Below are positions 16,096 to 58,699 of a stretch of DNA of 64,000 nucleotides, piece by piece. Position numbers and translations under genes: made by a program. Each line of letters starts with the position of its first letter. The first letter of the stretch is position 1. A model generated the notes under the pieces. It searched no databases, was not told where the DNA came from, and saw only the letters and a list, made by a program, of their open reading frames with translations. Origin of the DNA: the human T2T-CHM13v2.0 reference genome, Homo sapiens; assembly GCA_009914755.4 (NCBI GenBank), contig CP086569.2, forward strand, positions 23,584,001 through 23,648,000, written 5' to 3'.

Positions 16096-16098
16096 AGG

Positions 16099-16370
<272 letters not shown>

Positions 16371-16435
<65 letters not shown>

Positions 16436-16438
16436 TCT
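16371..16438. repeat. (TA)n microsatellite, ~68 bp
   Basis: atatatatatatatat... x34. Confidence 0.95.
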
Positions 16439-22812: not shown

Positions 22813-25800
22813 GTTAGTAGAATAACTTAAACGCATTTATTTTTTCTCCGTTTTAGGATATCACCATTTATCTCGATTACACCCACTTATTCGGTTTAAA
22901 TTACTTACGGTGCCAGAGATAAATGAAACATGTTTCAAATACTGTCATACAATGAAGGAGACAAAGGCTTTTCGGAGACAAATTTAAACTGAGATTATTT
23001 GTGGCCCCAGATTTCCTCATAACACTAAAGTAACGCAATTTGTCAAAAGTTCATAATTCCTCTCAAGCAAATCACAAATTTGACATGTGATGAGTAAAAG
23101 TACCAGTTTTTAATCAAATGGTTAAGTATATTGTCGATTTATTTGAATTATGACCACATTCACAGAGAAAAAACGCTTTAACAAAAAGTGCACATGAAAA
23201 AAATGGCGCCCTAGCTCCGTCTCCCACAGCTTGCTGGCATGTCGGAAATTTACGACGGTAAAGGGAAGAATCCTCAAGAAAAATCAGTGAGTTTAACAAA
23301 AGTGAGTTTCTTAATAGCACTAAGGAGTTCTCTCCCTACTGTTTCTTCCCATAATTCAACACCCACACATTGAAAACCCATCCTCCTGAATAGACAAAAT
23401 CCAAAAACTTCAGGGTCTTTGTATTCATGCCAAGAAACGAATCTGTGCAAAGAAACATAAAATAAAGCTGCTTTTTGGTAGCACAAACTGATATCCAACA
23501 CTTTCAGATATACAGTTGTACTCATAAACATAAGTCCACACCCAATAACAATTATAACATTTCTTAACATTTGCCAAAAAAAAAGCCTGAGAGAAATGGT
23601 CTTTACCACATTTCATCTATTTGCAGGAGATGACTTAGACATTAACTCTTTCTCCTGAGATAAAAACATGTCCACTCTGCTTAAATTTATGAATTTTTTA
23701 CCTCATTTTCCTGATTTTCTGAGAACACCCGTACGCGACCCCCTGTCACCAGGGGCTGAAGGAACAGTAGAGGCTAGAGGCATACCCAGCTAAAAAGCTT
23801 AGAAACTCGGATGTACCACCCGCCGCGAGAGCCGCAGAGGAAGCAGGGAAAGAGGAGCATAACATAAATCAAAGGAAGGGTGGCCCAAGAAACTTCTGTA
23901 TTTAAAAAAAATAAGGAAAGAAAATTAAAATGCCAAAATACGTTATACATTGTTTTCATTTTTTACTGTCTTCAACTGTGGTAGTCTGATCAACCTTAAA
24001 AGAAGTATTTTTATTATGAAATAGTCATCCATGTTTCATCCCCCTCTCAAATATTAGCAATAAGCTCACTCTACATGGTGTCTGCTTATTTTGTAAAATA
24101 ATGCATAAAGGGGAAAAATAATAATTAAATTTAAAGAAGTTTACAAGAAGCAAGCAATAATGAGTAAAATAACATTAAAAGAAAGCGAGAAAAATAAATC
24201 AATTAGGAATGTAAAGTTTCCAAATCTTAATCTTGTATCTTCTCTTTTTGGTTGTCATATATATTTGGAGACCTTATTTTATTTGCTTAGTAGATAAATG
24301 CAGTGATTTGACCCAAACTACCAAAATTAAAAATATATATATACACACATAGGCAATTTCTCTGTCCTCAATTTGTGTATAATAAATAGCATTCTTCATT
24401 AACAGAGCTCTAGTAAAATAAATATTTTATTTATGTTCCTGAAAAAAATATTTTATTAGCTGAACGACTGTATTTTCCATGGTAAAATTATTTCATTCTA
24501 TGAATTGTGTTGCAAAATAAAAGGTAACTTAAGAAAATACTTTTAAATATCTATGCAATGCAAACCAAACTTATTTTTCTGAGTTTGTCTATAAATTGTG
24601 CGTACCAGAATTTAAAAGAACATTTCTTTAAAAAGTGCTTACTTATAAGCCACATTTTAAGTGCTTTATATTAATTTAACAAATTAAAACCTATACATTG
24701 TATACTCACACTTATGAACTACTTAGTTCACAAAGTATACCATAACAATATAGAGCTGACTGTGTCTGCATAAATATTTTAATTTATCTTTTCAATATTT
24801 TCTTTTCTGATGAATAACCTAACAGTAAAAGCATGCTCTGAAGGTAAAGATATTCTTACATGTTTACGTATATTTTAGAAAAATGTTTCTTAAATTATGG
24901 CTACAAATCTATTGGCATTATTAGTTTCTTTCTTTTTTTATTACACTTTAAGTTTTAGGCTACATGTGCACAACGTGCACGTTTGTTACATATGTATACA
25001 TGTGCCATGTTGGTGTGCTGCACCCATTAACTCATCATTTACGTTAGGTGTATCTCCTAATGCTATCCCTCCCCCCTCCCCCAACCCTCCACCCCACAAC
25101 AGGCCCTGGTGTGTGATGTTCCCCTTCCTGTGTCCAAGTGTTCTCATTGTTCAGTTCCCATCTATGAGTGAGAACATGTGGTGTTTGGTTTCTGTCCTTG
25201 TGGTAGTTTGCTGAGAATGATGATTTCCAGCTTCATCCATGTCCCTGCAAAGGACAAGAACTCATCCATGTCCCTGCAAAGACATGAACTCATCCTTTTT
25301 TATGGCTGCACAGTATTCCATAGTGTATATGTGCCACATTTTCTTAATCCAGTCTATCATTGTTGGACATTTGGGTTGGTTCCAAGTCTGCTATTGTGAA
25401 TGATGCCGCAATAAACATACGTGTGCATGTGTCTTTATAGCAACATGATTTATAATCTTTTGGGTGTATACCCAGTAATGGGATGGCTGGGCCGAATGGT
25501 ATTTCTAGTTCCAGATCCCTGAGGAATCACCACACTGACTTCCACAATGGTTGAGCTAGTTTACAGTCCCACCAACAGTGTAAAAGTGTTCCTATTTCTC
25601 CACATCCTCTCCAGCACCTGTTGTTTCCTGACTTTTTAATGAACTCCATTCTAACTGGTGTGAGATGGTATCTCATTGTGGTTTTGATTTGCATTTCTCT
25701 GATGGCCCGTGATGATGAGCATTTTTTCATGTGTCTTTTGGCTGCATACATGTCTTCTTCTGAGAAGTGTCTGTTCATATCCTTCGCCCGCTTTTTGAAG

Positions 25801-26990
25801 GGGTTGTTTGTTTTTTTCTTGTAAATTTGTTTGAGTTCTTTGTAGATTCTGGATATTAACCCTTTGTCAGATGAGTAGATTGCAAACATTTTCTCCCATT
25901 CTGTAGGTTGCCCGTTTGCTCTTTTGGTAGTTTCTTTTGCTGTGCAGAAGCGCTTTAGTTTCATTAGGTCCCATTTGTGAATTTTGGCTTGTGTTGTCAT
26001 TGCTTCTTGTGTTTTAGACATGAAGTCCTTACACATGACTATGTCCTGAATGGTATTGCCTAGGTTTTCTTCTAGGATTTTTCTGGTTTTAGGTCTAACA
26101 TTTAGGTCTTTAACCCATCTTGAATTAATTTTTGTGTAAGGTGTAAGGAAGGGATCCAGTTTCCGCTTTCTATATATGGCTAGTTAGTTTTCCTAGCACC
26201 ATTTATTAAATAGGGAATCCTTTTCCCATTTCTTTTTCTTTCTCAGGTTTGTCAAAGGTCAGATAGTTGTAGATGTGTGGCATTATTTCTGAGGTCTCTG
26301 TTCTGTTCCATTGGTCTATATCTCTGGTTTGGTACCAGTACCATGCTGTTTTGGTTACTGTAGCCTTGTAGTGTAGTTTGAAGTCAGGTAGCATGATGCC
26401 ACCAGCTTTGTTCTTTTGGCTTAGGATTGGCCTGGCAGTGCGGGCTCTTTTTTGGTTCCATATGAACTTTAAAGTAGTTTTTTTCCAATTCTGTGCGGAA
26501 AGTCATTGGTAGCTTGATGGGCATGGCACTGAATCTGTAAATTACCTTGGGCAGTATGGCCATTTTCACGATATTGATTCTTCCTACCCATGAGCATGGA
26601 ATGTTCTTCCATTTGTTTGTATCCTCTTTTATTTAATTGAGCAGTGGTTTGTAGTTCTCCTTGAAGTGGTCCTTCACATCCCTTGTAAGTTGGATTCCTA
26701 GGTATTTTATTCTCTTTGAAGCAATTGTGAATGGGAGTTCACTCATGATTTGGCTCTCTTTGTCTGTTATTGGTGTATAAGAATGCTTGTGATTTTTGCA
26801 CATTGATTTTGTATCCCGAGGTTTTGCTGAGGTTGCTTATCAGCTTAAGAAGATTTTGGGCTGAGACAATAGGGTTTTCTAGATATACAATCCTGTCATC
26901 TGCAAACAGGGACAATTTGACTTCCTGATTTCCTAATTGAATACCTTTTATTTCCTTCTCCTGCCTGACTGCCCTGGCCAGAAATTCCTA

Positions 26991-27131
<141 letters not shown>

Positions 27132-32020: not shown

Positions 32021-34954
32021 TTCATTTCTTTTCATACTTTTTTCTCTAAACTTCTCTTCTTGCTTCATTTCATTCATTTGAACTTCCATCACTGATACCC
32101 TTTCTTCCATTTGATTGACTCGACTACTGAAGCTTGTGCATTCATCACGTAGTTCTTGTGCCATGGCTTTCAGCTCCATCAGTTCCTTTAAGGACTTCTG
32201 TGCCTTGGTTATTCTAGTTAGCCATTTGTCTAATCTTTTTTCAAGGTTTCTAACTCCTTTGCCATGGGTTTGAACTTCCTCCTTTAGCTCAGAGAAGTTT
32301 GATCATCTGAAGCCTTCTTCTCTCTACTTGTCATGTCATTCTCCATCCAGCTTTGTTCCATTGCTGGTGAGGTGTTGCATTCCTTTGGAGGAGGAGAGGC
32401 ACTCTGATTTTAGAATTTTCAGTTTTTCTGCTCTGCTTTTTCCCCATCTTTGTGGTTTTATCTACCTTTGGTCTTTGATGATGATAACGTACAGATGGGG
32501 TTTTGGTGTTGATGTCCTTTCTGTTTGTTAGTTTTCCTTCTAACAATCACCACCCTCAGCTGCAGGTTGGTGGAAGTTTGCGGAGGTCCACTCCAGACTC
32601 TGTGTGTGTGGGTATCAGCAGCGGAGACTGCAGAACAGTGGGTATTGGTGAACAGCAAATGTTGCTGCCTGATTGTTCCTCTGGAAGTTTTGTCTCAGAG
32701 GGGTACCTGACCACATGAGGGGTCAGTCTGCCCCTACTGGGGGGTGCCTCCCAGTTAGGCTACTCGAGGGTCAGGGACCCAGTTGCGGAGGCAGTCTGTC
32801 CGTTCTCAGATCTCAAGCTGCATTCTGGGAGAAGAACTACTGTCTTCCAAGCTGTCAGACAGGGACATTTAAGTCTGCAGGGGTTTCAGCTGCCTTTTGT
32901 TGGGCTATGCCCTGCCCCCAGAGGTGGAGTCTACAGAGGCAGGCAGGCCTCCTTGAACTGTGGTGGGCTCCATCCAGTTTGAGCTTCCCAGCCACTTTGT
33001 TTACCTGCTCAAGCCTCAGCAATGGTGGGAACCCCTTCCCCAGCCTCGCTGCTGCCTTGCAGTTTGATCTCAGACTGCTGTGCTAGCAATGAGTGAGGCT
33101 CCATTGGTGTAGGACCCTCTGAGCCAGGCACAGGTTATAATCTCCTGGTGTGCCATTTGCTAAGACCATTGGAAAAGTGCAGTATTAGGGTGGGAGTGAC
33201 CTTGTTTTCCAGGTGCCCTCTGTCACCCCTTTCCTTGGCTAGGAAAGGGAATTCCCTGACCCCTTGAGCTTCCTGGGTGAAGCAATGCCTCACCCTGCTT
33301 TGGCTCATGCTCAGTGCACTGCACCCACTGTCCTGCACCCACTCTCTGACAATCACCAGTGAGATGAACCTGGTACCTCAGTTGGAAATGCAGAAATCAT
33401 CCACGTTCTGCATCACTCACGCTGGGTGCTGTAGACCAGAGCTGCTCCTATTTGGCCATCTTGTAACCACCCCCTGTTAGTTTCTTTCTTACCAAAACCC
33501 ACTGTAGCATTTTCTTCTCATATTCTTTTTGTCACATTCTTAGCAGAAGAACATTGATTTGACTATGGCTCTCTCTACATTATTGTTACCCTTTTTCCAT
33601 TTTGAACAGATAATTGTTCCCTTTGTATTCATTGATATTTACTTGATGGAATGCATTTATTAATGTTATATGTAACTGAGTAGTATATACTTAATTGTTA
33701 ACTAATACAAATAATTAGTAAGTTAGCTAGTGAGACTACAGCACAGGAAAAATAGATATGTAAATTATACATTATGGTTGATGCCATAAGATGTATGAGA
33801 AAATGTCTCAGTATTTTTTTAAAAGAGGATACACATAATGTCATTTTCTAAATAATGATAAGGATCAACCTCTTTGATAAAATATCTACATATATTTTAC
33901 ACCAAGTTCATTTTTAGAAGTCCCATAACATTCGTATAATTTTTGTTAGGCCTAATTTGCAAAACAGGAAACTTAAGTTACAAGCCTTTAAAAGGTACAC
34001 AGTTTTAGGAATCTATTACTAAAAAAATTGATTTAAACCAACAAACCTTCCCTCTATAAATATTTTCTTCTTAAAGAAAACTGTCTCTTATAAAGACATT
34101 GTAAAAAACAAGATTGAAAATGATTTTTAATCTATTACATATACTTCCAAGAAACATTTTCTAGGCAGAGATAAAACATGTGGAGATGAATGGAGTCATT
34201 ATAATCCATGTGGTGGAAGGAAAAGCAAAAACACAAATACAGAATTATATTTACTGGGAGGATATGCAGAAACATGCAATGTTACAAGTAAAAATCTACT
34301 CGGTGGAATAACCTGCCTTTTTTTGTGATCAGTGAAATAGGACTAAATACACAAAGATCAAGGAATGTCACTAAATACACAAAGATCAAGTGGACACAGG
34401 GAGAGAGTGCAAGATCACGAAACATCTTGCTTGCCATGCAAATAGGCTACTTTTTTTAGGGCAGCGGTTAAAAATCATTTGACCAAAAGCTTGGTGTCTA
34501 CCAGATGGTATAATGCATGTGGTGATTTGTACAATATAAAGTTTGGCAAACCAAGAAAAATCTAACCTTCACCACTTAATAGCTGTGTGAAGTTAGACTG
34601 CTTAATCTTTGAAATTTACCCAATCAGCAAAGAGAATATAATAACGGTATCTACTGGATATTAGTATCATAAGATTAAAATTTACTGAGCTCACTATGTG
34701 CAACATAGTTTAGGGCTAAAAAATCTATAGAATTGTAATTACATTTATATTCAGTGAGACCTAGAGGTTTACTTGCAATCCTGCTTTCCTTAGTGACTGG
34801 TCAAAGCTACACAAAATATATTTAAAAAATTGTGTTGCTTCTGATGTTTCACATCAAGTAAAACACCCAATTGTTTAATTATATTATTATATACTTACAC
34901 TTAGACATGCCTAAACAAGGAAGACAAGGAAATGAAGAAACACACATGCATGAG

Positions 34955-46554: not shown

Positions 46555-47347
46555 TGAGAAGTGACAACATACTAGCAGCCCTCGCTCGCTCTTGGTGCTT
46601 CCTTCACCTCAGCATCCGCTCTGGCTCTGCTTGAGGAGCCTTTCAACTGGCCACTGCCCTGTGGGGGCCCCTCTCTGGGGCTGGTTGAGGCTGGGACTGG
46701 CTCCTTCTGCTGGCCTCCTGTCTAGCTAAAGGATTGTAAATGCACCAATCAGTGCTCTGTATCTAGCTAAAGGTTTGTAAACACATCAATCAGCGCTCTG
46801 TGTCTAGCTAATCTGGTGGGGACTTGGAGAACTTTTCTGTCTAGCTAAAGGATTATAAACACACCAATCAGCACTCTGTGTCTAGCTAAAGGATTGTAAA
46901 CGCACCAATCAGCAGGCTGTCAAAATGGACCAATCAGCTCTCTGTAAAATGGACCAACCAGATGTCTGTAAAATGGACCAATCAGTAGGATGTGGGTGGG
47001 TCCAGATAAGGGAATAAAAGCAGGCCACCTGAGCCAGCAGTGGAAGCCTGCTCGGGTCCCCTTCCATTCTGTGGGAGCTTTGTTTTTTCACTCTTCACAA
47101 TAAGTCTTGCTGTTGCTCACTCTTAGTGTCTGTGCCACTTGTATGAGCACCACGAAGGTCTGCAGCTTCACTCCTGAGGCCAGTGAGACCATGAACCCAC
47201 CAGAAGGAAGAAACTCCAGACACATCTGAACATCTGAAGGAAAAAACTCCAGACACACCATCTTTAAGAACCGTAACACTCATCGTGAGGGTTCGCGGCT
47301 TCATTCTTGAAGTCAGCAAGACCAAGAACCTACCAATTCCGGACACA
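46555..47347 (+). mobile_element. 3' LTR (LTR12-like), 793 bp. Lacks ~230 bp of U3 and one R/U5 unit present in 5' LTR; has seven CCAAT repeats
   Basis: TGAGAAGTGACAACATACTAGCAGCCCTCGCTCGCTC ... CCAATTCCGGACACA|atga. Confidence 0.8.
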
Positions 47348-49065
47348 ATGAGACAGAATTACAGCTCTTGCAGTGTTACAGCTCTGTGACTCGTCTTTCA
47401 GAACAGGGTTACACCATAGCAAGAGAGGAACAGGTCAGGGATATTTTGCAGTCATATTTATATTTGCTTTTAAATGCATGGATTATTGCAGAAGTGCAGA
47501 AATTTATAGGGAAGGGGTGGTAATCATTGGATCATTGCCATAGAAGGGTGGTACCTCCTGTGTGTTGTAGCGGCAATGGTAAAATGACACGGCAGACTGG
47601 TGGGCATGTCTGGTTGAAAACTCCTTCTGCCTAGTCCCTGTTTTAGTTAGTCCTCAATCTGGATCCTATGTGAGCCCTACCCCTGGAGTTGAGTCCCACC
47701 TTCAACCTCATTCTCCACTCAGACATTAACTACTTTCCCTTAATCTTAAGGGGGCTGCAGGAGGGAGGAGGTCCATGCACTGTAACTGCTTCCTGCTGAG
47801 TCATGAGCATTGGCCTTGCCTAGCACTAGAGAAGTAAATTTCTCTGGATGCATGAGCTAAAGGGGAGAAACAACATTATAATTCTCCAGGTCAGTACATA
47901 AGATAACTCAAAAGCCTTAAGCCAGCGTTGTTTTCACCTGGAAATATAGTAATCTACAAGATACAAACCTTACTATGAGGCTAAACAAACAAGTAAATAA
48001 ATTAGTAACAATACAGCTGTCAAGGGTCCTAAGATAGATTTTAAAAAGGTGGAAAAAGAGAGAAATACCCTTCTTCACAGAAAATTGTGAAACTGACAAT
48101 GATACCCTTCCTCTTCTAGAAAATTCAGGAGCTCAATTGTGTTTTTCTCAGTCTTCCCTAGTAGGAAGACCCTCTATTCCCACTGGCAGCATTATGTTGC
48201 CAATTCTGGATGAATGACTGTTGATACTTTTAAGTAGGTAGTGGCGATCTTCCAAAAATTTAGATTTAGGTTACAGTGTCCTCCATTTGTGCCTGCAACT
48301 TATAAGAAACAGGTTTAATCCTGGACAATTGTATCCAACTAGGTATGCCCTAAAGTTTAAAAGGACTGGGATAGTCAACAACACCTGATAGGGGCCCTTC
48401 TGTTTTGGTTGTAATTGATTCTCAGGGGATGCTTCTTTCAAAATGTTTACAAAGTTTCATGATTGAATAGGAGGCCAGTTAATTGTGTTGTGAGAGGGGA
48501 CAATACTTTTTGTCCATAGGCTTGGAGGAGTTTTCTAACCTAGCTTAAGTTGACAATATGTGTCAACTTATGAGTTAACTATGTATCTCTTTATTAAGCA
48601 GGAGACCCCAAGCTAAACATGGCCTCACATAACTCGCCTCAAGTGGATTTTTTGGGAAGTATTTTAAGGGTCATTCCTATGTGTATAAAGACTATGGCTA
48701 AGAGAGGAACCTGGGTCTCTGAGGTCTCCTGACATGACTTAGCTAATGTCTTTTCAAAACATGATTAGATTTTTCTATTTTACCTGAGGATTGAGTACTC
48801 CATGGGGAGTGAAGGTGATAGGTAACGTCTAAAGCTGAATGCAATCTATTGGGTCACTCTAACTGTGAAGGTAGTTCCATTATCGCTCTGCAGACTTTCA
48901 GGTAATTGAAACTTTACAGTTGATCTTATTAAGTAAAAATTTGGACACTCATAATGCCTTCTCTGTCCTTGTGGGAAAAGCCTCAATTCACTTGGTGAAG
49001 GTGTCTATAAAAACAGGCAAATGTTTCCTTCACCTGTATGGTTGTATCTGATAAAACCCTATTTG

Positions 49066-55645: not shown

Positions 55646-57769
55646 ATAAGGTTTTTTATTTGCCAATTTCCAGATTGAATTACTGTCCTCTCATGCATGC
55701 ATTAGAGTGGCCAGACAAAATGAAGAAAAAGGATTCAGTTGACTGAGAAAAAAACTTCTACCAGCAAAACAAGATCCAGGAAAAGAAAAATATAAAGGTC
55801 TTTTAAATATACCTATAATTTGGATATCCACTTTTAATTAAGTTGAGGACTCTTTAAGAATATCCTTTTAATTTTTTTATTACCTGACTCTAGTAGCACC
55901 AAGCAGCCAGTGTTTCTGGCTTTCAAATTTTAACAAAAGTAACTTACCAGGTGCTCAGAGGAAAAAAAAAAAAAAAGTAAGGCAGTTTGTTAAGTGGAAG
56001 AGAATCAGCAAAGGGCAAAAGTTACATGCTGATATAAAACCAGAAGAGACTCTTTCCTTAAGCCAGGATTAAACCTGGGCCACCATTGTAAAATGGCAGA
56101 GGCCAAAACAAAACAGAGCCACATTGGTTCAGGTCATGTTCCTGAAAACATAAAACAAGATGGATGCCTGCGCAAAATTTTCTGACAGCTATAGAGAAGG
56201 ACATACAAAGCACACCAGATTGGCCACAGCTCTAGACCAACCTGAGAAACATCTATTCACAATCAAAACTCTACAAAGAATATAAGCAGTGATCATTGGG
56301 GCATTGTCCGGCAAAACATTTCATATGAAGAAAACAAAAAAACCTTCTGCTTAAAAGTAAATTGCAGACAGGATGAAGAAAAGAAAAAAAAAGTCTTAAG
56401 TGTAGAGCAGGAAAGACAATTTTCTTTCTTATGCAAATGAGTTCCTTCAACAAGGAGAAAAACTTAATGCTGTTGGGTGAGGTTGGATCCCTTGGTCGGT
56501 GAACATGAAGACACCATGAGTGCCTCGCATTTTTCAGCCCAGAGGAGATGGGAATGAAGAGCTGCCATTCAACTACCATCCCACATGTGCCTGGGGCTGT
56601 TTGGGTAGGGTGTTGAAGAGTTTCCTCTATCCTCAGGAGAAGTCCAAGAATGAAAACACTTACAAACAAAATAGAAAAAGATTTTTTAGTTTACATCTTA
56701 CTTACCTCAAGCCCCACATCTAGACACCGAAATGTTATAGAACTTTCTCCTTAGTTAAGCTAAAACAAGGATCTTCTCACATGATTATGAAGGAAGAGTC
56801 TAATGAATACACTGAAGGGTTAGGAGTAAAGTTTATTGGGCCAAAAGGAAAAAGAAAACAACAACAACAACATCAACAACAAAGTGTCAGCAGAGTGGGA
56901 AGCACTCGTGTTATCTGGCCCTGACCTCACAGATTGAGGAACACCAGGTCACAACATAGCAACTTAAGAATCCAGGTTCCTCTCCTGCCAAAAGGTGTGA
57001 ATTTCAGTGGCTCCACCTCCTTTTCCCATTGCACAGGTAGGCATTATTCAGAAAGAAGCCGTCAGAAAATGGCTGGCTTCATTTGAAACCAGCAGTCCAA
57101 TTTTTCAGCCATCAGGCTGAAATGAAGTAAGACACTTTATAGTTGTTGTAAATTTTTTTCTTGAATTTCTTTTTCAGATGGCTTTTTCTTGGCATGAAAA
57201 TATGCTCCTACTAAGTTTTTAAAGTGAATTTGGTATTCTGCTACTTAACTGAATTTCTTTATCAATTCTCAAGATTTTTAGTGTAGTATTTAAGTTTTGC
57301 TATACAAACAGTTAAGAGATCTGCAAACAGATAATTTGACTTTCTTCCTTTTTATTTGGATGTCTTTTATTTCTTTCTCTTGCATAAATAATCTTGCTAA
57401 GACCTCCAGTACTCTGTTGAATAAAAGTGGTAAAAGTAGACATCACTGTCTTCTTCTAGGTCTTAAGTAAAAAGCCTTCACCTTTTAATGTTCAGTGTCT
57501 TATCAGGTATTGATTTGTCATATTTTGCCTTAACTGTGTTGTGTTACATACCATCTGTACCTAACTTGTTCACTTGTTTTAATCACAAAACATGCTAAAT
57601 TTTTCAAAATAATTTTTCTGCATCTAAAATAAAAAATAAAGTGCCTAGCAGTAAACTTAATTAAAAAGATAAACACTGTCTACACTATAAATTATAAAAC
57701 ATTAATTAAAAAACTAAAAAATATGAAAAACATGAGAAATATTTTTTGTTCATGAGTTATAAAAAATAT

Positions 57770-58699
57770 TGCTAAAATGACTATGCTACTCAAGGTAATC
57801 AACAGATTCAATGCAAACTCAATAAAAATACCAATGACATTTTTTCACAGAAATGGAAAAAAACAGGCCTAAAATCTATAGTGAACAAAAGAAACTCCCC
57901 AAATAGCCAAAGTCATCTAGCAAAAAAGAACAAAGCTGAAAGCATCAAATTACCCGACTTCTAAATATACTGCAAAGCTATAACAAGCAAACAGAGTGAT
58001 ACCGGCATATGAAACAGACAGATAGAACAAAGTATCCATTGATTCTAGTAATAAATTAATAAGCCTAGAGCCAAATAATTTTTAAGGTATTTAAGAGACA
58101 TATTTAAGAAAAGTCAACCTCATCAATAAATGGTGCTGTAAAATTAATTTCTTAAATACAAAGTAATACAACTAGATGCCTACCTGTTACCATATTTTAA
58201 AAACTTAATTAAAAATAAATAGAAGATTAAAATGTAAAACTCAAACTTATAAAACAATTTCCATAAAACATATAGAAATTCTTAATCAGATAGGACAGAA
58301 AAAATTTTTAAATAAGACCCCAGAAGCACAGGCAACAAAAGCAAAAGCAGACAAGTAAAATTACCAGAATCTAAAAAAAAAAAAAAAAAAATAGTAAAAA
58401 TAAATTTACAGAGTGAAGAGACAGCTTACACTGTGGGAGACTATATCTGCAAAATATACATATGACAAGAGATAAACATACGAATACATAACAATTTTAA
58501 GAGCAATAATAACACACTATTTAGTAATAGGCAAGATACCTTAACTGACATTTCCTCAAAGAAGACATACGAATGGCCAATTACATACAATGATGCTCAG
58601 CATTATTAATTATTAGAAAACTGCAAATCAAAGCCAAAATAAGACACCAAATCACTGCAGTAAAAATGAGTATAATTGGAAATGATACATTTCTGACCC

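What the first reader, a model, noticed from the sequence alone, without database searches (positions are those of the whole stretch)
24921..33488. L1-in-L1: a full-length L1 split by a twin-primed, 5'-inverted L1; both insertions bounded by exact TSDs
Segments 24933-29658 and 32021-33476 (both minus strand) join seamlessly within ORF1 (…KRNE | QSLQEIW…) and are flanked by a perfect 12-bp TSD TTAGTTTCTTTC. Together they form one 6.18-kb full-length L1. The intervening 2.36 kb is a younger L1 with its own poly-A, an 8-bp TSD (GAAATGAA in host sense) and an internal orientation flip at ~30395, where an 8-bp GAGAAATG overlap joins the inverted ORF2 segment (aa ~470-1075) to the 3' segment. This is the twin-priming signature. 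The host element's ORF2 carries multiple stops, so it is not retrotransposition-competent, but it can be dated by subfamily.
Basis: seen in the sequence. Interest (0 to 1): 0.5.

Follow-up and report, generated by a model that had tools for sequence, protein, structure and literature searches.

The report
Dead L1 split by inverted L1
A full-length but dead primate LINE-1 retrotransposon was later interrupted by a second, shorter LINE-1 whose front half went in backwards ("twin priming"); the call is correct, but this is a common and well-understood kind of genomic fossil.

Summary
A 6.17-kb full-length L1 on the minus strand (33476..32021 plus 29650..24933) is flanked by an exact 12-bp TSD (14 bp at most). 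It is split in ORF1, at codons ~140-143, by a 2362-bp L1 (29659-32020) with its own poly-A and an 8-14 bp TSD made of host ORF1 sequence. Removing the insert and one TSD copy restores an ORF1 that aligns to human ORF1p without a gap.

The insert has two parts. A direct 3' segment lies on the minus strand (29670-30394; ORF2p aa ~1102-1275 plus 3'UTR). An inverted segment lies on the plus strand (30395-32020; ORF2p aa 564-1104). In L1 coordinates the two parts abut and share 8 nt (GAGAAATG). One TSD pair and one poly-A bracket both parts. This is the textbook twin-priming signature.

- The inverted part is aa 564-1104, not ~470-1075.
- The two GAGAAATG copies lie at opposite ends of the inverted segment, not both at the flip.

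Both elements are defective. About 18% of germline L1 insertions carry such inversions, so novelty and interest are low. One small oddity: the insert's TSD shares 7 nt with the duplicated L1 octamer (chance ~1-3%, found post hoc).

The parts
24921..24932 (.). Host L1 target-site duplication, copy next to the host poly-A (TTAGTTTCTTTC). The exact repeat runs to 24934.
   Evidence: Identical to 33477-33488. The 12-mer occurs nowhere else in the window.
24933..24939 (-). Host L1 poly-A tail, seen as T7 on the plus strand. Two of the T are ambiguous with the TSD.
24940..25150 (-). Host L1 3'UTR.
   Evidence: Coordinate map. Aligns to the 3' end of the insert.
25151..28999 (-). Host ORF2 remnant (endonuclease plus reverse transcriptase). 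It is 3849 nt against 3828 nt for an intact ORF2, with many stops and frameshifts. It contains a 29-bp tandem duplication at 25233-25295.
   Evidence: Pfam Exo_endo_phos 1.1e-14 and RVT_1 5.7e-39. Stops and frameshifts. Duplication. Coordinates.
29063..29650 (-). Host ORF1, C-terminal part downstream of the insertion point (RRM and CTD).
   Evidence: Pfam Transposase_22 1.2e-55 and Tnp_22_dsRBD 9.7e-42. Ungapped alignment to PDB 2YKP across the join.
29651..29658 (.). Insert TSD, copy next to the insert poly-A (TTCATTTC, which is GAAATGAA in sense). The exact repeat spans 29649-29662.
   Evidence: The sequence is host ORF1 codons ~140-143.
29659..29669 (-). Insert poly-A tail, seen as T11 on the plus strand. 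Up to 4 of the T are ambiguous with the TSD.
29670..30394 (-). Insert, direct (poly-A-primed) segment: ORF2p aa ~1102-1275 (stop codon at 29873..29871) plus a 201-nt 3'UTR. Corresponds to host L1 nt 5408-6172.
   Evidence: BLAST against the host. PDB 8SXT residues 1103-1275, E = 4.8e-101. Coordinates.
30387..30394 (-). First copy of the 8-nt L1 stretch GAGAAATG, which is present in both cDNAs. This copy is the 5' end of the direct segment, at the orientation flip.
30395..32020 (+). Insert, inverted (internally primed) segment: ORF2p aa 564-1104, which is most of the RT domain plus downstream sequence. Corresponds to host L1 nt ~3790/3793-5415.
   Evidence: PDB 8SXT residues 564-944 (E = 4.6e-227) and 981-1104. 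Pfam RVT_1. BLAST against the host. Positive AT skew.
32013..32020 (+). Second copy of GAGAAATG. This copy is the 3' end, in L1 sense, of the inverted segment and abuts the TSD.
32021..32028 (.). Insert TSD, copy next to the inverted segment. The exact repeat spans 32019-32032.
32021..32447 (-). Host ORF1, N-terminal part (N-terminal domain and coiled coil), with the ATG at 32447.
   Evidence: Pfam Tnp_22_trimer 1.1e-20.
32448..33476 (-). Host 5'UTR, 1029 nt. The 5' end reads CAGGGGGTGGTTACAAGATGGCC..., with the YY1 core at element nt 14-23.
   Evidence: PMC11602158 places the YY1 site at nt 9-20 of the human L1 5'UTR.
33477..33488 (.). Host L1 TSD, copy at the 5' end of the element.

Best explanation
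There were two successive L1 retrotransposition events, both by endonuclease-dependent target-primed reverse transcription (TPRT).

Event 1. A full-length L1PA-type element (5'UTR, ORF1, ORF2, 3'UTR, poly-A; 6174 nt) inserted in minus orientation at a 5'-TCTT/AC-3' nick site. This created a 12-14 bp TSD. The element later decayed, and both ORFs are now broken.

Event 2. Another L1 RNA was inserted into ORF1 of that element at a 5'-TTTT/CA-3' nick site, by twin priming.
- The first cDNA was primed on the poly-A from the nicked strand. It reached back only to L1 nt ~5408 (ORF2 codon ~1102).
- A second cDNA was primed from the 3' end of the other target strand, at an internal site of the same RNA (L1 nt 5415; 2-nt CA:UG pairing). 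It ran upstream to nt ~3790.
- Joining the two cDNAs, with 0-2 nt of microhomology at 30393-30395, produced a 5'-truncated, 5'-inverted 2.36-kb insert. One poly-A and one 8-14 bp TSD bracket it. The octamer GAGAAATG was copied into both cDNAs.

Shown directly: the architecture, the coordinates, the TSDs, the overlap, the domain content and the relative order of the two events. Inferred: the biochemical steps, which are taken from the established TPRT and twin-priming models.

Neither element can retrotranspose now. No function is implied.
For: - Both TSD pairs lie exactly at the element boundaries. The chance of the 12-mer match is ~3e-5.
- Host ORF1 is restored without a gap when compared with human ORF1p 2YKP.
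- The rebuilt host has all the L1 domains: Tnp_22_trimer, Transposase_22, Tnp_22_dsRBD, Exo_endo_phos and RVT_1. It also has a 1029-nt 5'UTR with the YY1 box at element nt 14-23.
- The insert's segments map to host L1 nt 3793-5415 (inverted) and 5408-6172 (direct). In human ORF2p these are aa 564-1104 and 1103-1275.
- Only the direct segment carries a poly-A.
- Private codon changes are similar in the two halves of the insert: 39 of 500 against 15 of 169. That fits one event from one source RNA.
- The insert has fewer private changes than the host: 54 against 74 of 669 codons. That fits the nesting order.
- The literature shows this is typical. 5' inversions occur in 18.4% of germline L1 insertions. 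In 42% of the germline inverted insertions the two cDNAs overlap, with a median overlap of 12 bp and quartiles of 4-17 bp (PMC12016303). The twin-priming model itself is described in PMC2837659.
Against: - Neither nick site is the strict TTTT/A consensus (TCTT/AC and TTTT/CA). Both are T-rich variants, and the poly-A/TSD ambiguity leaves the exact nick position uncertain by 2-4 nt.
- Complementarity between the top-strand 3' end and the L1 RNA at the internal priming site is only 2 nt.
- One base at the internal junction (C at 30395) matches neither segment's expected L1 sequence. It is either filler or a later substitution.
- Subfamily identity of the two host halves could not be checked with RepeatMasker.
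Confidence: 0.95

Rival explanations
1. The 2.36-kb insert is two independent L1 insertions at the same spot. One is a 725-bp 5'-truncated L1 on the minus strand. The other is a separate 1.6-kb ORF2 fragment on the plus strand.
For: The two pieces have opposite orientations. L1s do tend to insert into existing L1 sequence (PMC12016303).
Against: - The plus-strand piece has no poly-A and no TSD of its own.
- It ends at L1 nt 5415, exactly where the other piece begins (nt 5408).
- A single TSD pair brackets both pieces.
- The two pieces have decayed to a similar degree.
- An endonuclease-independent insertion landing precisely at the 5' end of a previous insertion, with contiguous L1 coordinates, would be an extreme coincidence.
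Confidence: 0.02
2. A single, ordinary 5'-truncated 2.35-kb L1 inserted. Its 5' 1.6 kb was inverted afterwards by a DNA rearrangement, such as a double-strand break with inverted re-ligation.
For: The final arrangement (inverted 5' part, direct 3' part) would look similar.
Against: One breakpoint would have to fall exactly at the L1/TSD boundary. The rearrangement would also have to duplicate 8 nt of L1 and place the copies at opposite ends of the inverted piece. Twin priming predicts exactly this pattern, and it accounts for about a fifth of all L1 insertions.
Confidence: 0.02
3. The inversion arose by a variant of twin priming. The 3' end of the first cDNA (...CATTTCTC) first annealed to the top-strand TSD overhang through the shared AGAAATG. 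The unpaired 3' flap (AACA) then primed the second cDNA on the displaced RNA. This is the same family of mechanism as the best explanation but a different order of events.
For: - The TSD (AAAGAAATGAACA) and the duplicated L1 octamer (GAGAAATG) share a 7-nt identity. This makes the 5' junction a palindrome, AGAAATG-AA-CATTTCT.
- Such an identity is expected in only 0.6-3.4% of random breakpoints and 0.8-1.3% of random targets.
- PMC12016303 notes that overlap lengths and TSD lengths have very similar distributions and offers no mechanism.
Against: This is one locus, noticed post hoc, in A-rich L1-in-L1 sequence where such motifs recur. A p of ~0.01-0.03 does not survive the number of features one could have looked at. 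The classical model needs no such pairing.
Confidence: 0.1

Closest known systems
Twin-primed (5'-inverted) L1 insertions (Ostertag & Kazazian 2001, cited as ref. 14 in PMC12016303; surveyed in PMC12016303 and PMC2837659)
   Same: One TSD pair and one poly-A. The inverted 5' part and direct 3' part come from adjacent stretches of the same L1. There is a small overlap (8 nt) at the inversion point, within the published range (median 12 bp, quartiles 4-17). Microhomology at the junctions is short.
   Different: Nothing essential. The only unusual detail is the 7-nt identity between the TSD and the duplicated octamer.
Full-length fossil L1PA elements of catarrhine primates (the L1Pa7-L1Pa3 age class, 30-10 Myr per PMC7449397)
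   Same: About 6.2 kb with a ~1-kb 5'UTR carrying the YY1 box, a 338-codon ORF1, a 63-nt spacer, a 1275-codon ORF2, a 3'UTR and an A tail. ORF1p has the ancestral L1Pa5-type residues T105, F107 and S108, and lacks the tripeptide that is present in ancestral L1Pa5, L1Pa6 and L1Pa7.
   Different: Both ORFs are broken. There is a 29-bp internal duplication, and the element is interrupted by the second L1. The exact subfamily was not assigned because no Dfam or RepeatMasker was available.
Nested transposon insertions (TE-in-TE), as used for relative dating of repeat families
   Same: The insert's TSD is made of host-element sequence, and excision restores the host. So the insert is younger than the host.
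   Different: None. This is a routine case. PMC12016303 reports that insertions tend to land in reference TEs of their own type.
Dual priming and twin-priming variants with inverted poly-A (PMC2837659)
   Same: Both target strands serve as primers.
   Different: Those variants leave a 5' poly-T and little or no direct segment. Here the inverted segment starts inside ORF2, with no poly-T at the TSD. The classical form therefore applies.

Membership tests
LINE-1 (L1PA-type) full-length element: the host | 5'UTR beginning at the canonical start, with the YY1 box near nt 9-20 | tested here: met
   The element begins CAGGGGGTGGTTACAAGATGGCC, with the YY1 core at nt 14-23. The 5'UTR is 1029 nt. Position of the site from PMC11602158.
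LINE-1 (L1PA-type) full-length element: the host | ORF1 encoding a coiled coil, RRM and CTD | tested here: met
   Pfam Tnp_22_trimer 1.1e-20, Transposase_22 1.2e-55 and Tnp_22_dsRBD 9.7e-42. PDB 2YKP at 2.5e-46. The ORF is disrupted by stops and two 1-nt deletions.
LINE-1 (L1PA-type) full-length element: the host | ORF2 encoding an APE-type endonuclease and a reverse transcriptase | tested here: met
   Exo_endo_phos 1.1e-14 and RVT_1 5.7e-39. The remnant is 3849 nt against 3828 nt when intact. It is not intact: there are multiple stops and frameshifts.
LINE-1 (L1PA-type) full-length element: the host | 3' poly-A, a flanking TSD and a T-rich endonuclease nick site | tested here: met
   A 7-nt A tail, an exact 12-14 bp TSD and an empty site of ...TTTCTT/ACC. 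The nick site is a variant of TTTT/A, not the strict consensus.
LINE-1 (L1PA-type) full-length element: the host | Specific L1PA subfamily (diagnostic 3'UTR and ORF1 positions, Dfam/RepeatMasker) | tested here: inconclusive
   No consensus library was available. The published ORF1p markers (T105, F107, S108; no extra tripeptide; a 338-codon frame) point to a modern-L1Pa5 to L1Pa4-like ORF1. Codon-level divergence fits a somewhat older age than the insert.
Twin-primed 5'-inverted L1 insertion: the insert | A single TSD pair brackets both the inverted and the direct segment | tested here: met
   TTCATTTC at 29651-29658 and 32021-32028, with an exact repeat of up to 14 bp.
Twin-primed 5'-inverted L1 insertion: the insert | Poly-A on the direct 3' segment only, with the inverted segment on the 5' side | tested here: met
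   T11 at 29659-29669 adjoins the direct segment. The inverted segment abuts the other TSD copy with no A or T run.
Twin-primed 5'-inverted L1 insertion: the insert | The inverted segment comes from L1 sequence immediately upstream of the direct segment, with a small deletion or duplication at the inversion point | tested here: met
   Host L1 nt 3793-5415 against 5408-6172, an 8-nt overlap. In ORF2p these are aa 564-1104 and 1103-1275.
Twin-primed 5'-inverted L1 insertion: the insert | Both segments derive from one source RNA (same subfamily and same age) | tested here: met
   Private codon changes are 39 of 500 in the inverted segment and 15 of 169 in the direct segment. This is a weak test at protein level only.
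Twin-primed 5'-inverted L1 insertion: the insert | Complementarity between the top-strand 3' overhang and the L1 RNA at the internal priming site | tested here: inconclusive
   Only 2 nt (CA:UG) can pair; the longest shared run between the reverse-complemented TSD and the L1 breakpoint window is 3 nt. Short or absent microhomology is reported as common (PMC2837659).
Nested (TE-in-TE) insertion | Removing the insert and one TSD copy restores a continuous host element | tested here: met
   The junction reads ...AAAAGAAATGAA|CAAAGCCTCC... and translates to KRNE|QSLQEIW. It aligns ungapped to ORF1p.
Retrotransposition-competent L1 | Intact ORF1 and ORF2 | tested here: not met
   Host: the longest sense ORF is 218 codons. 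Insert: 5'-truncated, inverted, and carrying stops at ORF2p positions 1144, 1159 and 1193, among others.

The most novel reading that the evidence does not exclude
The 7-nt identity between the insert's TSD (AAAGAAATGAACA) and the L1 octamer copied into both cDNAs (GAGAAATG) may not be a coincidence. In overlap-type twin priming, the first cDNA's 3' end may first anneal to the top-strand TSD overhang. This is the same microhomology step that resolves ordinary 5'-truncated insertions. The unpaired 3' flap of the overhang would then prime the second, inverted cDNA on the displaced L1 RNA. That would explain why the second priming site sits at the end of the first cDNA. It would also explain why cDNA-overlap lengths track TSD lengths, a similarity that PMC12016303 noted but left unexplained.
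Probability: 0.1. Interest if true: 0.45.

Novelty: already known. Interest (0 to 1): 0.07.

Why it matters
It matters little beyond correct annotation. The locus is a clean, fully resolvable example of two well-known phenomena: nested L1 insertion and twin priming. It gives a relative date, with the insert younger than the host and both probably in the 10-30 Myr L1PA age class. It could serve as a phylogenetic presence/absence marker in catarrhine primates.

Neither element is mobile, and nothing suggests the host genome has co-opted either one. The only point of wider interest is the TSD/overlap identity. If it recurred genome-wide, it would refine the order of steps in twin priming.

Tried and rejected
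- A first three-way comparison used raw tblastn HSPs. It mixed frames in the frameshifted host and inflated host-private changes to 98. I replaced it with codon projection through a nucleotide alignment, which gave 74.
- Rfam at gathering thresholds found nothing in the whole window.
- The original twin-priming paper (PMC311219) and the L1PA chronology paper (PMC1356131) are not held. Twin priming is therefore cited through PMC12016303 and PMC2837659, and no published subfamily ages beyond '30-10 MYA for L1Pa7-L1Pa3' (PMC7449397) are used.
- The supplement of PMC9252281 is only an 11-kb PDF. I did not read it, because it is too small to hold consensus sequences.
- Subfamily assignment from my own recollection of L1PA 3'UTR consensus sequences gave an older guess for the host (L1PA7-8-like) than the published ORF1 markers do. 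I treat that as an unreliable lead and do not use it.
- The DNA collections offered (viral, metagenome, prokaryote, phage, plasmid, E. coli) cannot contain primate L1 context, and the identity of the proteins was already unambiguous from PDB and Pfam.
- The 174-aa ORF at 3238-3762 has no Pfam match.

Full report
**Observation**

I read 24800-33600 directly and checked the claimed junctions by script.
- The 12-mer TTAGTTTCTTTC lies at 24921-24932 and 33477-33488 and nowhere else in the 64-kb window, on either strand.
- The exact repeat extends to 14 bp; the last two T cannot be told from the poly-A tail.
- TTCATTTC lies at 29651-29658 and 32021-32028, inside a 14-bp exact repeat (29649-29662 / 32019-32032). 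Its outer bases are ambiguous with the insert's poly-A on one side and with the end of the inverted L1 segment on the other.
- Allowing +-10 bp slop at each boundary, a 12-mer match is expected with probability ~3e-5 and an 8-mer match with ~7e-3.

For the insert, the stronger argument is functional. Deleting 29651-32020 gives a 6174-nt element whose ORF1 reads ...[19 protein letters not shown]... across the join. This aligns without a gap to human ORF1p (PDB 2YKP, E = 2.5e-46).

**The host element**

The rebuilt host (minus strand, 33476..32021 plus 29650..24933) has these parts:
- A 1029-nt 5'UTR beginning CAGGGGGTGGTTACAAGATGGCC.
- An ORF1 frame of 1012 nt, which is 338 codons minus two 1-nt deletions.
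- A 63-nt spacer.
- A 3849-nt ORF2 remnant.
- A 211-nt 3'UTR and a 7-nt A tail.

The YY1 core lies at element nt 14-23. The published position in human L1 is nt 9-20 (PMC11602158), so the element is complete at its 5' end to within a few bases.

Pfam finds Tnp_22_trimer, Transposase_22, Tnp_22_dsRBD, Exo_endo_phos and RVT_1, all far above threshold.

Both ORFs are broken. ORF1 has at least two frameshifts and several stops. ORF2 has stops at, for example, codons 672, 791, 937, 940 and 1159, plus several frameshifts and a 29-bp tandem duplication at 25233-25295. The longest open sense stretch is 218 codons.

**The insert**

BLAST of the 2362-bp insert against the rebuilt host places its two parts as follows:
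- 30395-32020 (plus strand) on host L1 nt 3793-5415.
- 29672-30394 (minus strand) on host L1 nt 5408-6172.

The two parts are therefore adjacent in L1 coordinates, in opposite orientation, and share 8 nt.

Against solved human ORF2p (PDB 8SXT), the plus-strand part covers residues 564-944 and 981-1104, and the minus-strand part covers 1103-1275. The segment begins just upstream of the catalytic SIDAEKAFD motif, not near residue 470.

The shared octamer GAGAAATG is physically present twice. One copy is at the flip (30387-30394, as CATTTCTC). The other is at the far end of the inverted segment next to the TSD (32013-32020). Twin priming predicts this layout.

Other features fit as well:
- Only the direct segment carries a poly-A (T11 at 29659-29669).
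- AT skew is strongly negative across the host, as expected for an antisense A-rich L1, and turns positive over 30-32 kb. This marks the inverted piece independently.
- At the internal junction the sequence TTTCTC|C|AGTGGGC allows 0-2 nt of microhomology, plus one base (C at 30395) that matches neither side.

**Mechanism**

The empty sites, rebuilt on the nicked strand, are ...TTAGTTTCTTTCTT/ACC for the host and ...GTTCATTTCTTTT/CAT for the insert. Both are T-rich variants of the L1 endonuclease preference.

The architecture of the insert matches the published twin-priming model feature for feature (PMC2837659; PMC12016303):
- One TSD pair.
- One poly-A.
- An inverted upstream piece.
- A small duplication at the inversion point.

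The steps themselves are inferred from that model and are not shown by the sequence. They are poly-A priming on the nicked strand, internal priming from the other strand's 3' end, and joining of the two cDNAs.

Two rivals are disfavoured: two independent insertions, and a post-insertional inversion. The plus-strand piece has no poly-A or TSD of its own. The L1 coordinates of the two pieces abut with an 8-nt duplication. One breakpoint coincides exactly with the L1/TSD boundary.

**Relative age**

No L1 consensus library was available, so I polarised differences with a three-way comparison. Insert codons were projected onto the host through a nucleotide alignment (90.0% identity, 233 mismatches over 2335 aligned nt). 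Both were then compared with the L1HS ORF2p sequence printed in the PDB alignments. Of 669 comparable codons:

| Class | Codons |
|---|---|
| Identical in all three | 521 |
| Changed only in the insert | 54 |
| Changed only in the host | 74 |
| Changed only in L1HS | 14 |
| Different in all three | 6 |

- The two halves of the insert have similar private rates: 39 of 500 and 15 of 169. That is as expected for one event.
- The host has more private changes than the insert, in line with the nesting order, although its count also includes lineage substitutions between the two source elements.
- By rough inference, 8% changed codons corresponds to some 3-4% nucleotide divergence.
- The published ORF1p markers put the host's ORF1 in the modern-L1Pa5 to L1Pa4-like class. 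These markers are the ancestral L1Pa5-type residues T105, F107 and S108, and the absence of the tripeptide present in ancestral L1Pa5, L1Pa6 and L1Pa7 (PMC7449397).
- That paper dates L1Pa7-L1Pa3 to 30-10 Myr ago. Both events plausibly fall in this range. Precise subfamily names need RepeatMasker.

**How ordinary this is**

In long-read human data, 5' inversions occur in 18.4% of germline and 21.9% of somatic L1 insertions. In 42% of germline inverted insertions the two cDNAs overlap, with a median of 12 bp and quartiles of 4-17 bp. Insertions also tend to land in reference elements of their own type (PMC12016303). An 8-bp overlap, an 8-14 bp TSD and an L1-in-L1 target are all typical. The same window even holds a second, much older L1 remnant that flips orientation in the same way.

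**One oddity**

In insert sense the TSD is AAAGAAATGAACA and the duplicated L1 octamer is GAGAAATG. They share AGAAATG, so the 5' junction is a palindrome, AGAAATG-AA-CATTTCT.
- This is identity, not the complementarity that the classical model invokes for internal priming. Only 2 nt (CA:UG) can pair there.
- Controls give an identity of 7 nt or more in 0.6-3.4% of random L1 breakpoints and 0.8-1.3% of random 13-mer targets.
- One reading is that the first cDNA's 3' end annealed to the top-strand overhang through this motif, and the unpaired flap then primed the second cDNA.
- That reading would also explain the published similarity between overlap and TSD length distributions.
- With one locus and a post hoc observation in A-rich L1-in-L1 sequence, I give it about 10% and list the genome-wide test that would decide it.

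**Verdict**

The finding is real and correctly interpreted, with two errors of detail. It is a known kind of structure that standard repeat annotation already handles. Interest is low.

Noticed in passing
window 57164-58469: A second, much older L1 ORF2 remnant (40-48% amino-acid identity to L1HS ORF2p) also flips orientation at ~57630. ORF2p aa ~599-753 lie on the minus strand (57627..57164). Aa ~765-898 (57633-58030) and ~985-1047 (58281-58469) lie on the plus strand. This looks like another 5'-inverted (twin-primed) L1, of the deletion type, with ~11 codons missing at the inversion point. TSDs and poly-A were not examined.
   Followed up: partly
window 37100-38250 and 46555-47350: Two direct copies of a ~1.1-kb repeat, 82-83% identical and ~9.4 kb apart. 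Each contains ~5 copies of a 41-bp tandem unit, CTAGCTAAAGGATTGTAAATGCACCAATCAGCACTCTG. From memory this unit resembles LTR12/HERV9 LTRs, so the pair may flank a provirus or may be two solo LTRs. Neither the family nor the internal region was tested.
   Followed up: partly
window 25233-25295: A 29-bp tandem duplication (2.2 copies, 94% match) inside the 3' end of the host L1's ORF2. It appears as a 28-nt insertion relative to the nested L1.
   Followed up: yes
window 25527 region (host) and 30220 region (insert); ORF2p codon 1159: Host and insert both carry a stop (TGA) where L1HS ORF2p has R1159 (SVW*FLRDLE in both). The likely cause is parallel CpG decay of a CGA codon in two independently inserted copies.
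   Followed up: partly
window 32015-32030: The 5' junction of the nested L1 forms a perfect 7-bp-stem palindrome, AGAAATG-AA-CATTTCT in insert sense. The cause is that the TSD and the L1 octamer copied into both cDNAs share AGAAATG. Chance is ~1-3%.
   Followed up: yes
window 30397-31539 (+): The inverted ORF2 fragment stays open for 381 L1 codons; the mechanical ORF at 30316-31542 is 408 aa. This is the longest ORF in the whole 64-kb window. My rough expectation for an element of this divergence is ~2 stops, so the open frame is not significant evidence of constraint.
   Followed up: partly
window 16098-16436: An Alu element: the 5' end matches the Alu consensus at 34 of 36 positions on the plus strand. 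It is followed at 16372-16436 by an (AT)33 microsatellite. This confirms a primate origin for the window.
   Followed up: no
window 3238-3762 (-): A 174-aa ATG ORF, the only ORF of 150 aa or more outside the L1s. It has no Pfam match at E <= 0.01. It is probably a chance ORF or repeat-derived.
   Followed up: partly
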